From Promethearchaeota archaeon (GTDB taxonomy: Archaea; Asgardarchaeota; Lokiarchaeia; Sigyniarchaeales; SOKP01), in contig JAEOTA010000061.1 of NCBI GenBank assembly GCA_016840085.1, positions 1 through 22,776 on the forward strand: 22,776 nucleotides of DNA, written 5' to 3'. A model generated the notes under the pieces. It was given only the letters and a program-made list of their open reading frames with translations, did not search any database and had not been told where the DNA came from. The stretch's first letter is position 1. Each line of letters starts with the position of its first letter. The position numbers and the translations under genes were made by a program. Below are positions 18,696-22,774 of this stretch, one piece after another.

Positions 18696-18899
18696 AAAAA
18701 AATAAAAAAAGTTCATCTACGCAGTGATAGGTATAGAAACAGTACTGTTAATTAGAAGTAAAATGAAAAGAATAAAATAACATTTTTTTTCGATGCCAGG
18801 AGATTTCAACTTGTTTTTAGGAGTATTTAGCTCTAATTAATTTATTTACCGATGGTTATATATTTTAACTAAGATATTGTTTCAACTGTAAGTTGAATT

Positions 18900-18927
18900 C
18901 TTATAAAAACTTATAAATTCTTATAAA
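18900..18927. repeat. Three CTTATAAA units at 10-bp period
   Basis: The units lie at 18900, 18910 and 18920 and are preceded by the inverted repeat TTCAACT-GTA-AGTTGAA (18881-18897). Confidence 0.55.
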
Positions 18928-19129
18928 AATCCAAAAAATTACATCTCTCGCTCAGTAAAAATAGAATAATACCCTTTTATATTATCAATTTAGTAAGAAA
19001 TAAAATGGGTGAGGAAAAAAACCAAAATAAATTGTTTATACCTTTCATTGATTTGAACGAAAATAATCATATTCACTTGACTCATTAAATCATTGATTCT
19101 TTATTCAAGTGAAAACTCGAAGGAGCTTC

Positions 19130-19455
19130 AAATTTAAGGAAAAATTTCCTGCCATTTGTAAATGGTTGCTCTCGCAAGTCGGGGATTCTGAGCCTCGTTT
19201 GAAAAAGAGCAGTCCCTCCGGCAAATGGTTCTAAATTTGTGTTTTTTCGAGTATTATGGGATAATTTCCTTCAAAACTTCGGAAATAGAACAAAAAGAGC
19301 TATTAATGAGGTATGTTTTGAACTCGGTGACGAGCATACAGTCTGATAACCTTAGGGCTGGTCTTTCTTAAAAAAGAAGAATTGATAATTAGAATAGAAA
19401 TTTAGATTTTTATAGAAATTTCTAAATTTTTATAAATAATTGTAAGGTTATGTTA
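19130..19455 (+). mobile_element. Decayed 3' end / right end of a TnpB-family element (relative of 22028-22354)
   Basis: It aligns by eye with the 3' end of the tnpB-like gene, e.g. FKEKFPAICKWLLSQVGD vs FKDAIPTIYKWLLAQVGD and RYVLNSVTSIQSDNLRAGLS vs KYVLNLVTSEQPDNLRVGLS. It contains stops and indels. Similarity continues past the stop codon to ...AAGGTT(A/C)TGTTA. Weaker similarity may extend back to ~19035. Confidence 0.88.
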
Positions 19456-19475
19456 ATATGAATAGAGAGATTAAA
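19311..19475 (+). ncRNA. Putative orphan omegaRNA (scaffold to 19455, followed by predicted guide)
   Basis: Conserved hairpins lie at 19339-19360 and 19402-19425. ATAACCTT (19346-19353) is perfectly complementary to AAGGTTAT (19444-19451). The 5' end is uncertain and expression is unknown. Confidence 0.45.
19429..19436 (+). promoter_or_regulatory. Candidate archaeal TATA box for the MNT-HEPN operon
   Basis: TTTATAAA is centred ~26 nt upstream of ATG 19458, the spacing expected for a leaderless archaeal transcript. It lies inside the mobile-element remnant. Confidence 0.5.
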
Positions 19476-19841
19476 CAATTAACTGAAAAATTTTTGGAGC
19501 AATTAAGACATACAAAATATTTTCCTAAAACAGAATTTGCTATTTTGTATGGGTCTTCTCTGGGCAATTATCATTTAGAAAAAAGTGATATAGATATATG
19601 TTTATTCATTGATGCTGAGAAGGAAGATCTTTCAAAAATACGATTAGAATTGTTGAAAAAATTTAATGATAGATTAGATATTCAAATTTTTCAATTACTC
19701 CCATTATATGTTCAGACTGAGGTATTAAAAGGTAAAGTACTTTATGTGAGGAATGAAGAAAGGTTATATGAAATTGCTAACAAGACTATTGAAGAGTATG
19801 AAGAATTTTATCCATTTTATTTGGACTATATCAATCGGTGA
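19458..19841 (+). CDS. MNT nucleotidyltransferase antitoxin (MntA-like)
   Basis: It has the GS-x10-DxD motif (LYGSSLGNYHLEKSDIDI), LDIQIFQLLPLY and a GTGA overlap with the HEPN gene. Confidence 0.9.
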   Translation: MNREIKQLTEKFLEQLRHTKYFPKTEFAILYGSSLGNYHLEKSDIDICLFIDAEKEDLSKIRLELLKKFNDRLDIQIFQLLPLYVQTEVLKGKVLYVRNEERLYEIANKTIEEYEEFYPFYLDYINR

Positions 19842-20284
19842 GTATTTTAAGAATTGATATAATTAAAACAAAACTGAAAATTATTGAAGAAAATATTGAG
19901 TTAGTAGAAGAAAACCTTCCTAATGCTGTAAATGAATTTAAAGGTTTAGGATTAGTTAAGGATGGTATTTATAAAAGAATTGAGACATCAATTCAAGAAG
20001 TTTTGAATATTTGTTCAATAATTAATTCGGATTTAAAACTAGGTATTCCCTCTAATAGAGATGATATCATTATCACATTAACAGAGAATAATATTTTATC
20101 ACAAAAAATGGGTGAAAAAGTTAAAGAGATGAAGGGATTTAGAAATTTTTTAGTGCACCGTTATGGAAAAATTAATGATGACGTTGCATTTAAAGATATT
20201 AAAAAAGGTTTAACTGATTTCGAATTATTTAAGAAAGAAATTCTTAATTTCTTAAAAAAATCTACAGAGATTCCAGATGACTAA
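19838..20284 (+). CDS. HEPN/DUF86 ribonuclease toxin (HepT-like)
   Basis: The R-x4-H-x-Y motif is intact (GFRNFLVHRYG), and the gene is coupled to the MNT gene. Confidence 0.92.
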   Translation: MSILRIDIIKTKLKIIEENIELVEENLPNAVNEFKGLGLVKDGIYKRIETSIQEVLNICSIINSDLKLGIPSNRDDIIITLTENNILSQKMGEKVKEMKGFRNFLVHRYGKINDDVAFKDIKKGLTDFELFKKEILNFLKKSTEIPDD

Positions 20285-20550
20285 AAGCATAAAACCTATT
20301 TAGAGGGTGTTAATTAATGATTCTGGAAATTTCTTATACTAATTAAATTCTTTAAAAATATAGAATAGTTGTACAGGATATTTTTAAAATGGAAATTTCA
20401 TTATTTAGCACGATGATTTCACTAAAAATTGCATATGAAGTTATTACTTTTATTTATTGAAAGTCTTCTACTAAAACGCAATATATATAATATCGTGTTA
20501 TATTATTCTTATGGCGGAAATCGATTTTTTTTTAACCTTTCTTATTATAT

Positions 20551-20757
20551 GAAAAGAAAGAGAAGAAAAGAAATAGTATTACAACCATTATTGATATTAT
20601 CTGTCTTGCGTATGAAAATATGTGTGATATAGTTGTGTTGGTATCTGAAGACAGTGATTTTGTGTCTATCGTAAAAAGAATGAAAGAATTGGATAAAATT
20701 GTGGAAATATGAGCATTTAGATATTCATTAACGAATGCCTTAAAGGAAGAATTCTAG
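20551..20757 (+). pseudogene. NYN (LabA/DUF88) domain remnant
   Basis: The frame reads EKKEKKRNSITTIIDIICLAYENMCDIVVLVSEDSDFVSIVKRMKELDKIVEI*AFRYSLTNALKEEF*. This matches the NYN pattern 'D..VLVSGDxDF..V...KE.GK.VE'. There is an internal TGA at 20710 and the 5' part is decayed. Confidence 0.78.
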
Positions 20758-20759
20758 CA

Positions 20760-22354
20760 AGAAAAACCATAACCAGTTTTTCTATAAATACTTAAAATTA
20801 GAGAGATTACTAGATGAAGCAAACCATCAAATTTCGATTGCATCCGACGGCTTCACAAGAACAGAAATTACATGAAATTTTCACTATCTATAATAAAATA
20901 AAGCGAATAGGATTTAATCGTTATTTTGAGTTAAGACATACCGATTTCACTAAGAATGAAAAACGATTATTTGTTCAACATCATTTGATGGAACTCTGCC
21001 ATAATAATCCTTATGTTAATAGTGTCCTCATAGATTGTGAGACTAAGTTAGCCCAGCAACACACATGGTATGACAAACGTGAGAAGTATTTAAAACATCA
21101 AATTATTACAATTAAGAAGAAGATTAAACAGGTAAGGGAAAAAAGCAAGAAAGATAGACGTTTAAAAGGGTTATATTCACGTCTGTCATCAGTTCAGAAT
21201 AACTTATTTGCGTTGCGATTTAAACCAATTGTATTTGGAACAAAACGGTTATTTCGGGAGCGAATTTTAGGCAAAATTAGCAGAGATGAGTTTAGAATTA
21301 GGAGAGACTCTTCATTTTGCTGTGTGGGAAAGAAACAAGGAGTGAATTTAAACTTGAAAATTCTCCCCGACATGACACTTAAAGTTCGTACCTTTTCTAA
21401 AGAAAAAGCTCAGAGGTGGTTGCTCATCCCTTTTATCGTAAATTACAAGCAAGAACAATGGTTTGAGGAAATACTCGATTTGGAATTATATACTGTGTCT
21501 GTAGTGAGACGTTTAATTAAAGGAAACTTAAGATATTTTGCTCATGTTTCATATGAGATTCCTGAAGAAGAACTCAAGTATGGTTTTAAAAATGGAGCTG
21601 TCGGGCTTGATATGAATTATAATTTTGTTTCTCTCTGTAATGTCGATAAAGTGGGTAATTTCAAGAGTTTTCATGAAATTAAATTTAGAAACTTGCATTC
21701 TTATCGTAAATACAAGAGTACTGATTATATAAGTTATAAGATGGATAAAGTAGTTAATTATTGCATCAATAAAAAAAAAGGGTTAGTGATTGAAGATCTT
21801 TCTTTTGAACAAGAATTCTCATATGGAAGAAGACGCAATAGAAAATTAAGTAATTTTAAAACTTCCGCATTAATTTTATTAGAAAGAAAATGCTTAAAAA
21901 GAGGTGTCGCTGTTAGAAAAGTACATCCTGCCTATACCTCTTTAATTGGCAAGTATAAATATTTACGCTCACGTAATTTATCTACTCACATATTAGCAAG
22001 TTACGTGATTGCTCGAAAAGGTCTGGGATTTAAGGATGCGATTCCAACCATTTATAAGTGGTTACTTGCACAAGTCGGGGACGTTATAAAGCCCCGTTTG
22101 AAACCAAGCACTCCCTACTATAACTGGGCTAAACTCCACGATTTTTTCAAGCATAGCGGGATAACGTCCTTCAAGACTTCCGAAGTAATGAAAAAAACCT
22201 TACGAATGAAGTATGTCTTGAACTTGGTGACGAGCGAACAGCCTGATAACCTTAGGGTTGGTCTTTCCCCCACAGGAAAGGTTGATGATTGGAATAAATT
22301 TTGGAATTTTATAGAAATTACCAATTTTTTATAAATAATTAGAAGGTTCTGTTA
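20760..22354 (+). mobile_element. Non-autonomous tnpB-only element (IS1341-like organisation)
   Basis: No transposase is adjacent. The right boundary is fixed by the point where similarity to the remnant stops (GTTA at 22354). The left boundary is approximate, at the hairpin AGAAAAAC-N8-GTTTTTCT (20760-20783). Confidence 0.6.
20814..22334 (+). CDS. tnpB: TnpB-related RuvC protein (IS200/IS605-IS607 accessory protein)
   Basis: The N-terminus TIKFRLHPTASQEQKL is an OrfB-type start. RuvC-I is AVGLDMN and RuvC-II is LVIEDL, followed by VRKVHPAYTS and THILASYVIARKGLG. There is no CxxC zinc finger and there is a ~100-aa C-terminal tail. Confidence 0.88.
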   Translation: MKQTIKFRLHPTASQEQKLHEIFTIYNKIKRIGFNRYFELRHTDFTKNEKRLFVQHHLMELCHNNPYVNSVLIDCETKLAQQHTWYDKREKYLKHQIITIKKKIKQVREKSKKDRRLKGLYSRLSSVQNNLFALRFKPIVFGTKRLFRERILGKISRDEFRIRRDSSFCCVGKKQGVNLNLKILPDMTLKVRTFSKEKAQRWLLIPFIVNYKQEQWFEEILDLELYTVSVVRRLIKGNLRYFAHVSYEIPEEELKYGFKNGAVGLDMNYNFVSLCNVDKVGNFKSFHEIKFRNLHSYRKYKSTDYISYKMDKVVNYCINKKKGLVIEDLSFEQEFSYGRRRNRKLSNFKTSALILLERKCLKRGVAVRKVHPAYTSLIGKYKYLRSRNLSTHILASYVIARKGLGFKDAIPTIYKWLLAQVGDVIKPRLKPSTPYYNWAKLHDFFKHSGITSFKTSEVMKKTLRMKYVLNLVTSEQPDNLRVGLSPTGKVDDWNKFWNFIEITNFL

Positions 22355-22374
22355 CCACTACATATATTATTATA
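22211..22374 (+). ncRNA. Putative omegaRNA overlapping the tnpB 3' end (scaffold to 22354, predicted guide CCACTACATATATTATTATA)
   Basis: TnpB omegaRNAs are known to overlap the gene's 3' end. Hairpins at 22239-22260 and 22301-22324 are conserved in the remnant. AACCTT (22248-22253) is complementary to AAGGTT (22343-22348). Confidence 0.6.
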
Positions 22375-22420
22375 AAAAAACCTGGAACAGTAAAATATGG
22401 CCCAAGAATTATTTGTAAAC

Positions 22421-22774
22421 TTAATTTGAACTTAGATAATTCTTGCAGAATTCTTCTGATGTGCAAATTTTTATAATGTTCTTTCCTCGATTAAATTTTC
22501 CATCATTAGTGATTAAGAATGACACTTTCTCATGTAAAGAAGCTGCGACAATAATGCTATCGGGTAATCTAAGATTTGTTTCACTTCGAATTTTTGCCGA
22601 TTGATCAGCTAATCTCCTATCCAAATTAACGATTATGTAATTATCTTGCGAATATAACTTCGAAATATATTCATCTTTCTCTTTAGGTTTGTGTATATTA
22701 TAGTAACCTACGCATAGTTCTGCAATTGTAATAATCGAAATAACTCCTTTTAATTGCCCGTCTTCAATCGCATC
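22421..22774 (-). CDS. VapC/PIN-domain toxin (5' end outside window)
   Basis: The frame is open to the window edge: DAIEDGQLKGVISIITIAELCVG...LRLPDSIIVAASL...LITNDGKF. Confidence 0.88.
   Translation of the reverse strand, partial: DAIEDGQLKGVISIITIAELCVGYYNIHKPKEKDEYISKLYSQDNYIIVNLDRRLADQSAKIRSETNLRLPDSIIVAASLHEKVSFLITNDGKFNRGKNIIKICTSEEFCKNYLSSN

What the first reader, a model, noticed from the sequence alone, without database searches (positions are those of the whole stretch)
22211..22354. Two-copy comparison reveals the scaffold fold: hairpins, a compensatory pair and a terminal pseudoknot
Seen: (1) Hairpin A is CAGCCTGATAACCTTAGGGTTG (22239-22260) vs CAGTCTGATAACCTTAGGGCTG (19339-19360). 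Both substitutions keep pairing (C-G to U-G, G-U to G-C) while changing amino acids (P to S, V to A). (2) Hairpin B is TTGGAATTTTATAGAAATTACCAA (22301-22324) vs TTAGATTTTTATAGAAATTTCTAA (19402-19425), with a true compensatory change from G22303-C22322 to A19404-T19423. (3) The apex of hairpin A, ATAACCTT, pairs with AAGGTTAT (8/8, remnant) or AAGGTTCT (7/8, intact) 4 nt before the boundary. (4) Synonymous third-position differences are frequent upstream (AAG/AAA, TTA/TTG, CTT/CTC, CCC/CCT, TCC/TCG) but absent in the AAC...GGT CTT block. Established: characterised TnpB omegaRNAs form a pseudoknot next to the guide. Inference: this is an omegaRNA fold for this TnpB subfamily, and the protein's last ~40 codons are constrained by RNA.
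Basis: partly seen in the sequence, partly recalled or inferred. Interest (0 to 1): 0.75.

Follow-up and report, generated by a model that had tools for sequence, protein, structure and literature searches.

The report
Guide-RNA scaffold inside Asgard tnpB
The last ~300 bases of a TnpB-like transposon gene in this Asgard archaeon also encode a conserved, base-paired RNA that ends exactly at the element's right end, which is the layout of a TnpB guide (omega) RNA, here for a TnpB clade with no guide RNA described in the papers I could search.

Summary
The gene at 20814-22334 is a divergent TnpB (no zinc finger, His in place of the RuvC-III Asp). This family was found almost only in Asgard archaea.

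About 120 copies from genomes and metagenomes show:
- **Codon constraint.** Synonymous variation collapses over the last ~120 codons, not ~40.
- **Structure.** A 67-pair structure spans 22048-22348. 94.8% of cells pair, against 42-51% when partners are slid, and 34 pairs carry compensatory changes.
- **Strand.** G·U outnumbers A·C 291 to 49, so the fold is read on the sense strand.
- **Hairpin A** is confirmed.
- **Hairpin B** is only the variable tip of a longer stem (22294-22332). Three copies have lost that tip.
- **Pseudoknot.** It is 6 bp: AACCUU in the hairpin A loop with the terminal AAGGUU. It is intact in 111 of 120 copies. Two copies carry the matched change GACCUU/AAGGUC. Seven carry one uncompensated mismatch.

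The geometry matches the ISDra2 omega RNA. No Rfam family matches. Expression and nuclease activity are untested.

This is a new member of a known kind. First readers of this scan noted similar hairpin clusters in tnpB tails of at least six other genomes.

The parts
20814..22334 (+). tnpB-like gene, 506 aa. It has the RuvC-I Asp (D266) and RuvC-II Glu (E327). It has no zinc finger, and an invariant His392 stands where RuvC-III Asp is expected.
   Evidence: NF040570 scores 40 bits (cut-off 100). TIGR01766 scores 34 bits (cut-off 32). Alignments. Foldseek top hits are Cas12f, Cas12k, TnpB and RuvC. The features match the clade RIIIr-4 of PMC10691335.
21965..22047 (+). Start of the zone of suppressed synonymous change. 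It holds a possible GGAA-NNNN-UUCC hairpin (~22032-22045). The stem is invariant, so it could not be tested.
   Evidence: Synonymous-codon entropy falls from ~1.2 to ~0.6 bits at about aa 384-400. The hairpin is seen by eye in alignment A3.
22048..22127 (+). P1: long interrupted stem of the 5' domain. It encloses the hairpin CGGGG/CCCCG (22076-22096).
   Evidence: 24 pairs, 12 with changes on both sides. Examples: UA 31 / GC 19, CG 33 / UA 16, CG 27 / UA 18.
22158..22170 (+). P2: hairpin GGGA-UAACG-UCCU.
   Evidence: 99.5% of cells paired. AU 46 / GC 4 at the closing pair.
22185..22203 (+). Hairpin E (GUAAUG...CAUUAC in most copies).
   Evidence: 4 of 6 pairs have double changes. Examples: AU 20 / GC 20, and AU 24 / CG 15 / UA 3 / GC 2.
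22223..22234 (+). Hairpin D: 4-bp stem closed by a GNRA-type tetraloop (GUGA, GCGA, GGAA). Its compensatory changes force paired amino-acid changes (NSVTS / NPVTG / NSVTN).
   Evidence: UA 80 / CG 17 and CG 94 / UA 4 on 101 copies. Peptides are and DNA.
22239..22260 (+).
   Evidence: 99.4% of cells paired. 4 of 5 pairs have double changes (AU 89 / CG 9; GC 91 / AU 3).
22248..22253 (+). Pseudoknot 5' strand, AACCUU, in the loop of hairpin A.
   Evidence: Invariant apart from GACCUU in L040 and L136, which also read AAGGUC at the end.
22262..22281 (+). Hairpin C (UCUUUCC / GGAAAGG).
   Evidence: 6 of 7 pairs have double changes. The stem is lengthened in a sister clade.
22294..22332 (+). Stem B. 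The outer stem AUAAA(N)/(N)UUUAU is conserved. The stop codon is at 22332-22334.
   Evidence: Each copy folds into the extended stem. The middle pairs covary (UA 45 / GC 29; CG 27 / UA 12). The tip is deleted in L047, L050 and L173 while the outer stem is kept.
22333..22342 (+). Conserved single-stranded linker AAAUAAUUNN. Together with the U run before it, it reads as a TATA-like box in DNA.
   Evidence: Nearly invariant across the family.
22343..22348 (+). Terminal AAGGUU: pseudoknot 3' strand and last bases of the element's right end.
   Evidence: Identical in 110 of 120 copies. Flanks diverge from the next base.
22349..22368 (+). Predicted guide: flanking DNA read through from the scaffold. 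The ~20 nt length is assumed by analogy.
   Evidence: No conservation after AAGGTT in any comparison. The function is inferred.
18874..19449 (+). Internally deleted copy of the element (~576 bp). It has its own left end (hairpin TCAACTGTAAGTTGA at 18882-18896) and a coding-dead copy of the RNA region (19149-19449). It ends 8 nt before the MNT start codon.
   Evidence: Left-end motif. nhmmer E 1e-69. Covariance model 145 bits. 62/67 pairs intact. Stop codons in the frame.

Best explanation
Window 22048-22348, and perhaps from ~21965, encodes on the sense strand the scaffold of an omega-type guide RNA for the TnpB-like protein whose own gene it overlaps.

The scaffold has two parts:
- A 5' domain: long stem P1, hairpin P2 and hairpin E.
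- A 3' core: GNRA hairpin D, hairpin A, hairpin C and long stem B, then a 10-nt linker and the terminal AAGGUU.

AAGGUU pairs back to AACCUU in the loop of hairpin A, about 100 nt upstream. This closes a pseudoknot directly before the first flanking base.

Transcription through the right end would add the flanking ~16-20 nt as the guide. The RNA is probably cut out of the tnpB mRNA, as in ISDra2.

The scaffold lies inside the reading frame up to 14 nt from its end. The last ~100 codons therefore evolve under RNA pairing rules as well as protein rules.

Shown here: the conserved end, the covarying helices, the strand, and the complementarity and matched change of the pseudoknot.

Inferred: that the RNA is expressed, is bound by this protein, and directs it to DNA.
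For: - **Right end.** It is defined to the base by about 100 independent flanks.
- **Codons.** Synonymous-codon entropy drops from ~1.2 bits (aa 1-380) to 0.4-0.7 bits (aa 385-506).
- **RNAalifold.** 50 pairs, 26 with compensatory changes.
- **Named structure, 67 pairs, 50 copies.** 94.8% paired against 42-51% slid. 34 pairs with double changes against 10-17. Covariation 0.263 against 0.065-0.085. 0 of 500 shuffles reach the observed values.
- **3' domain, 101 copies aligned with the model.** 94.5% paired against 38-52%. 21 pairs with double changes against 3-9.
- **Strand.** G·U 291 against A·C 49.
- **RNA over protein.** Compensatory changes in hairpin D change amino acids in pairs. In a sister clade the frame stops 72 nt before the end, yet hairpins C and B, the linker and AAGGUU persist. 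The coding-dead remnant keeps 62/67 pairs.
- **Pseudoknot.** 111 of 120 copies have a perfect 6-bp complement. The two copies reading GACCUU are the two reading AAGGUC.
- **Geometry.** It matches ISDra2, where -5..-3 pairs with -103..-105, the stem next to it is stem 4, and the gene overlaps the RNA down to -10.
- **Distribution.** The RNA model hits only places that hold the gene or its remnants, in the window's genome and 60 relatives.
- **Protein.** It has a TnpB/Cas12 fold.
Against: - There are no expression, processing or binding data.
- The single-sequence folding energy is unremarkable (z = -1.24).
- Pseudoknot covariation rests on two copies. The tree separates them (97* branch), but an AU test does not reject a single origin (p = 0.43).
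- Seven of 120 copies carry one uncompensated mismatch in the terminal hexamer and still have intact frames.
- In the Loki-type copies, stem B is followed by six U. That could stop an archaeal polymerase before the guide.
- The protein has His for the RuvC-III Asp and no zinc finger, so cleavage activity is unproven.
- This intact copy lacks the family's left end. The genome shows no Y1 transposase. Its present biological role is therefore unclear.
Confidence: 0.8

Rival explanations
1. The conserved hairpins and the AACCTT/AAGGTT complementarity act in single-stranded DNA as the right end of an IS200/IS605-type element. In that family, subterminal hairpins are bound by a Y1 transposase, and the cleavage site is recognised by pairing with an internal guide sequence.
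For: - The feature sits at the element's right end.
- The left end has its own hairpin, plus a stretch that resembles the reverse complement of stem B and its box.
- A matched change between the terminal base and an internal base would also arise from DNA pairing.
- Borrarchaeum genomes with many copies do hold a Y1 transposase.
Against: - The covarying structure runs 300 nt into the gene. From my own knowledge, that is far more than transposase-bound ends span.
- G·U-type pairs outnumber A·C 6:1, and GNRA tetraloops are present. Both are marks of RNA.
- The window's genome, with three copies, shows no Y1 transposase at 98.8% completeness.
- The Y1 genes found elsewhere sit next to an ordinary 427-aa TnpB, not this family.
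- This reading could still be true of stem B alone, alongside the RNA role.
Confidence: 0.08
2. It is a structured 3' end of the tnpB mRNA with no guide function. It would act in stability, termination (stem B plus a U run) or control of translation.
For: - In Loki-type copies, stem B followed by UUUUUU looks like a terminator.
- The structure lies within the mRNA.
Against: - Conservation continues 16 nt past the U run, to an invariant AAGGUU that pairs 100 nt upstream.
- Borr-type copies have only four U.
- The U run is the 3' strand of a covarying stem.
- Internally deleted copies without a gene keep the fold.
Confidence: 0.07
3. There is no RNA. The conservation reflects protein constraint on the C-terminal tail, or recent copying between elements.
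For: - The tail is conserved as protein and is modelled as helices at pLDDT 75-84.
Against: - Synonymous sites are the ones frozen.
- Pairs covary, including through non-synonymous changes.
- Conservation continues past the stop codon, and past earlier stop codons in a sister clade.
- Copies are 55-88% identical as protein, so the similarity is not recent copying.
Confidence: 0.02

Closest known systems
ISDra2 TnpB omega RNA (reRNA), Deinococcus radiodurans (PMC10097598)
   Same: - It is a sense RNA overlapping the 3' end of tnpB down to ~10-14 nt from the right end.
- The scaffold ends at the element boundary and the flank serves as guide.
- A pseudoknot joins the last bases before the guide to a site ~100 nt upstream.
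- A hairpin (stem 4 there, stem B here) lies just before the 3' pseudoknot strand.
- The protein's C-terminal tail is encoded by the scaffold DNA.
   Different: - There is no sequence similarity.
- The pseudoknot here is six Watson-Crick pairs in a hairpin loop. ISDra2 has three canonical plus two non-canonical pairs.
- A further covarying 5' domain brings the scaffold to about 300 nt. In ISDra2 the region upstream of -116 is dispensable.
- The protein here lacks the zinc finger and has His for the RuvC-III Asp.
- Nothing here has been tested at the bench.
TnpB major clade RIIIr-4 (Altae-Tran et al. 2023, PMC10691335)
   Same: The clade is described by RuvC-III Asp replaced by His and loss of the C4 zinc finger. 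Both features are invariant in this family and in its wider relatives.
   Different: - I could not place this protein on their tree, so membership rests on features only.
- The passages of that paper that I read give no RNA structure for the clade.
- That paper says the clade is represented in viruses. This family gave one distant hit in viral contigs.
Sense-overlapping transcripts of IS1341-type tnpB genes in archaea (Gomes-Filho 2015, as cited in PMC10097598)
   Same: [quoted passage not shown]
   Different: I know that work only through the citation and did not read it. It concerns other archaea and other TnpB families.
Cas12f sgRNA (tracrRNA plus crRNA) pseudoknot core
   Same: A pseudoknot precedes the guide, and the protein fold is similar. 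Cas12f gives the best Foldseek hits. The conserved core is described in PMC10097598.
   Different: Cas12f uses two RNAs and a CRISPR array. Here there is a single RNA carried on a transposon.

Membership tests
TnpB omega RNA (OMEGA guide RNA) | Encoded on the sense strand across the 3' end of tnpB and ending at the transposon's right end | tested here: met
   The structure spans 22048-22348. The stop codon is at 22332-22334. The conserved end is at 22348. The sense strand is shown by G·U 291 against A·C 49.
TnpB omega RNA (OMEGA guide RNA) | Conserved secondary structure supported by covariation | tested here: met
   34 of 67 pairs carry compensatory changes, and all controls are exceeded.
TnpB omega RNA (OMEGA guide RNA) | Pseudoknot formed by the bases just 5' of the guide | tested here: met
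   6-bp AACCUU/AAGGUU is present in 111 of 120 copies. Two copies carry the matched change GACCUU/AAGGUC. Seven copies carry a single mismatch. The support is moderate, because it may rest on one evolutionary event.
TnpB omega RNA (OMEGA guide RNA) | Variable guide taken from the flank right after the conserved scaffold | tested here: met
   Flanks are unrelated from the first base after AAGGTT.
TnpB omega RNA (OMEGA guide RNA) | Transcribed, bound by TnpB, and directing DNA recognition next to a TAM | not testable with these tools
   No expression or biochemical data are available. The TAM was not resolved. A conserved ATATTRTT sits at or next to the left-end boundary.
TnpB / Cas12 RuvC nucleases | Bilobed TnpB/Cas12 fold with a RuvC domain, RuvC-I Asp and RuvC-II Glu | tested here: met
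   D266 and E327 are invariant. Foldseek gives Cas12f at 5e-8 and ISDra2 TnpB at 4e-4. TIGR01766 is above its cut-off, NF040570 is below its cut-off.
TnpB / Cas12 RuvC nucleases | RuvC-III Asp and C4 zinc finger of typical TnpB | tested here: not met
   His392 is invariant and there are no Cys pairs. This is the stated hallmark of clade RIIIr-4. It is therefore an atypical, not a typical, TnpB.
IS200/IS605 autonomous element | Y1 transposase (TnpA) gene in the element | tested here: not met
   There is no PF01797 match in the window's genome and none next to copies of this family. It is a tnpB-only element.
Any Rfam family | Match to a curated covariance model | tested here: not met
   There are no hits at gathering score in the window. 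Only noise appears at E up to 10 across 21900-22420.

The most novel reading that the evidence does not exclude
Internally deleted, gene-less copies keep both ends and the whole RNA fold. Examples are the 576-bp copy at 18874-19449 and the orphan in a sister genome. Such copies may be maintained as stand-alone guide-RNA genes that load the His-type, zinc-finger-less TnpB in trans.

The guide of the remnant here would then be the first bases of the MNT antitoxin gene. The protein would be targeted to, or would regulate, the MNT-HepT toxin-antitoxin operon. That would be a transposon-borne step towards multi-guide, CRISPR-like or repressor-like use of TnpB in Asgard archaea.
Probability: 0.1. 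Interest if true: 0.8.

Novelty: new member of a known kind. Interest (0 to 1): 0.45.

Why it matters
- **A testable guide RNA for an atypical TnpB.** The report gives a base-resolved scaffold, guide start and pseudoknot for a TnpB clade with a His in its active site and no zinc finger. The papers I could search describe no guide RNA for this clade. Anyone can now ask whether these proteins are RNA-guided and whether they cut DNA.
- **A clean case of dual coding.** RNA helices visibly dictate paired amino-acid changes across about 100 codons.
- **A reusable detector.** The covariance model finds copies and gene-less remnants in Asgard genomes, where such elements are routinely left as 'hypothetical protein plus intergenic DNA'.

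Tried and rejected
- **Rfam.** Searches at gathering score and at a permissive threshold found nothing.
- **Sequence search of solved structures.** phmmer against PDB sequences gave no informative hit.
- **Long-range pairing.** RNAalifold proposed UCCA (22135-22138) pairing with UGGA of stem B. I rejected it: the matched G-to-A change is explained by stem B itself, and L049 breaks the long-range pair but keeps stem B.
- **Extra pairs.** Pairs 241-254 and 263-274 of A3 were dropped as mostly A·C or mixed.
- **Crude helix finder.** It drowned in G/U-rich noise and was not used.
- **Independence of the two compensated copies.** The tree says two events, but the AU test does not reject one. I left this open.
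- **Left end upstream of the intact gene.** None was found. The only match in the window belongs to the remnant.
- **Viral contigs.** One distant relative only.
- **Thermodynamics.** The z-score alone is not significant.
- **TAM.** I could not separate it from the first bases of the left end without an empty site.
Full report
**What is there**

The window comes from an Asgard (Promethearchaeota/Loki-type) genome assembled from a metagenome. Named relatives of the gene all carry such names, apart from two contigs binned to bacteria. ORF 20814-22334 (506 aa) is a divergent TnpB.
- Its N-terminus matches the OrfB helix-turn-helix.
- TIGR01766 passes its cut-off. The guided_TnpB model scores 40 bits against a cut-off of 100.
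- An AlphaFold2 model (pLDDT 70) finds Cas12f, Cas12k, Cas12m, TnpB and RuvC as best folds.
- D266 and E327 are invariant. There is no zinc finger. An invariant His392 stands where RuvC-III Asp is expected. This holds in the family and in its remoter relatives.
- These are the stated hallmarks of the major clade RIIIr-4 of Altae-Tran et al. 2023 (PMC10691335).

**Check of the observation**

The two window copies align at 82%. The window's genome holds a second full copy on another contig (78% protein identity) and a weak fragment.

**The family and the true right end**

I gathered 59 loci from species genomes and 80 from metagenomes. 120 of them hold the full 3' region. In all comparisons similarity stops right after AAGGTT, which is 22343-22348 in the intact copy and 19444-19449 in the remnant. 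The bases that follow are unrelated.

**Nucleotide-level constraint**

At codons with a conserved amino acid, synonymous-codon entropy is about 1.2 bits through aa 1-380. It falls to 0.4-0.7 bits from about aa 385 to the end. So about 120 codons are constrained at the nucleotide level, not 40.

**Structure**

RNAalifold on 50 copies predicts 50 pairs, 26 of them with compensatory changes. I added two helices seen by eye (E and the extended stem B) and the pseudoknot, then counted 67 pairs in 12 helices.

| Measure | Observed | 3' partner slid 1-3 columns |
|---|---|---|
| Cells paired | 94.8% | 42-51% |
| Pairs with changes on both sides | 34 | 10-17 |
| Cells with changes on both sides | 237 | 32-55 |
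| Covariation score | 0.263 | 0.065-0.085 |

None of 500 shuffles reached any observed value.

A covariance model of the 3' domain aligned 101 distinct copies. There, 94.5% of cells pair against 38-52% for slid partners, and 21 pairs have double changes against 3-9. G·U cells outnumber A·C cells 291 to 49, so the fold is read on the sense strand and behaves as RNA.

Helices in window coordinates:
- P1: 22048-22127, enclosing CGGGG/CCCCG
- P2: 22158-22170
- E: 22185-22203
- D: 22223-22234, with a GNRA tetraloop
- A: 22239-22260
- C: 22262-22281
- B: 22294-22332
- Linker: 22333-22342
- Terminal AAGGUU: 22343-22348

The MFE z-score of the single sequence is only -1.24. The case rests on comparison between copies, not on thermodynamics.

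**RNA rules override protein rules**

- In hairpin D, the U-A to C-G change turns Ser...Ser into Pro...Gly (NSVTS to NPVTG). The C-G to U-A change gives NSVTN.
- In a sister clade (L062-L066 and metagenome relatives) the frame stops 16 codons after the PDNL motif, 72 nt before the end. Hairpin C, stem B, the linker and AAGGUU are still kept.
- The remnant has stop codons but 62 of 67 pairs intact, against 63 of 67 in the intact copy. Between the two, 6 pairs are kept through double changes and 7 through single changes.

**Hairpin B re-read**

Folding each copy alone shows a longer stem. AUAAA plus 2-4 variable bases plus UGG pairs with CCA plus variable bases plus UUUAU. The variable middle covaries (UA 45 / GC 29; CG 27 / UA 12). 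All three keep the outer stem closed by a short loop. The U run after 'hairpin B' is therefore the 3' strand of this stem.

**Pseudoknot**

The six terminal bases AAGGUU are complementary to AACCUU in the loop of hairpin A, 95 nt upstream.

| Copies (of 120) | Loop / terminal hexamer |
|---|---|
| 110 | AACCUU / AAGGUU (two of these carry a change elsewhere in the loop) |
| 2 (L040, L136) | GACCUU / AAGGUC, a matched change on both sides |
| 1 | AACCUU / AGGGUU, a G·U wobble |
| 7 | One uncompensated mismatch: AAAGUU in 4, AAGAUU in 2, AUGGUU in 1 |

All the variant copies have intact frames. No copy has a loop change without the matching terminal change.

A tree of the upstream 1200 nt places L040 inside a well-supported clade of canonical copies and L136 outside it, which implies two events. 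An AU test does not reject a single origin (p = 0.43). I therefore count one to two events. A perfect complement anywhere in a shuffled scaffold arises in about 8% of shuffles.

In ISDra2, -5..-3 pair with -103..-105 to form the pseudoknot that precedes the guide. Stem 4 lies next to it. The gene overlaps the RNA to -10 (PMC10097598). Here the strands are -6..-1 and -101..-96, stem B is adjacent, and the stop codon ends at -15.

**Element context**

- Many copies carry a left end about 190-250 nt upstream of the start codon. It reads ATATTRTT, then the hairpin TCAACNGTTNGTTGAAA, then A/T boxes that partly mirror the right end.
- The C5 copy has this left end. The element there is about 1.8 kb.
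- The intact window copy does not have it.
- The 'remnant' does have it. It is a 576-bp internally deleted element (18874-19449) with both ends.
- No Y1 transposase is found in this genome at 98.8% completeness.
- Borrarchaeum genomes, with a dozen copies, have one, but it sits beside an ordinary TnpB.
- In 60 relatives the RNA model hits only genomes with the gene or its remnants. It also finds another gene-less copy in a sister genome.

**Comparison and novelty**

This works like, and by its sequence features is, an omega RNA. It is a sense RNA overlapping the tnpB tail. It ends at the right end, covaries, has a pseudoknot before a variable flank, and travels with a TnpB-fold protein. Expression and function are untested. 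It matches no Rfam family. I found no paper describing the RNA of this clade. It is a new member of a known kind. The points of interest are the atypical active site of its partner protein, the extra covarying 5' domain, and the gene-less copies.

First readers of this scan noted similar hairpin clusters in tnpB tails of at least six other genomes. Those notes are unchecked, and I did not use them as evidence.

Noticed in passing
window 18874-19449: The 'remnant' is a complete, internally deleted element of about 576 bp. It has its own left-end hairpin (18882-18896) and its right end at 19449. The tnpB frame is gone, so it resembles a MITE.
   Followed up: partly
window 19428-19460: The conserved box TTTATAAATA of the remnant's right end lies about 26 nt before the ATG of the MNT gene (19458). 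That is the spacing of an archaeal TATA box for a leaderless mRNA. The remnant's predicted guide would cover that start codon.
   Followed up: no
window 20285-20813: The intact tnpB copy lacks the family's left end. Only about 75 nt upstream of the ATG (with a TTTCTATAAATA box) resembles other copies. The copy is probably immobile. It lies directly downstream of an MNT-HepT toxin-antitoxin pair (19458-20284).
   Followed up: partly
L007:3181-3250 (second copy in the window's genome, contig C5) and left ends: Part of the left end (TTTATAAAAA..TTCTATAAAAATC) resembles the reverse complement of the right end's stem B and box. The ends are thus partly inverted-repeat-like, which is unusual for IS200/IS605-type elements.
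   Followed up: partly
protein aa 436-455 (window ~22119-22178): W438, H442 and D443 are invariant within the Asgard family, in the tail beyond the His392 motif. Their codons lie inside the RNA scaffold. Their conservation could therefore reflect the RNA, the protein (perhaps a relocated acidic residue), or both.
   Followed up: no
L069 and L070, 3' ends: Two copies carry a 20-nt tandem duplication of the box between stem B and AAGGTT.
   Followed up: no
L173:3540-3564: A second, isolated match to hairpin A lies 14 nt beyond the right end of the 656-aa family member.
   Followed up: no
window 22421-22774 (- strand): A PIN-domain gene converges on the element's right end. Together with MNT-HepT, this shows that the neighbourhood is rich in toxin-antitoxin-type genes.
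   Followed up: no
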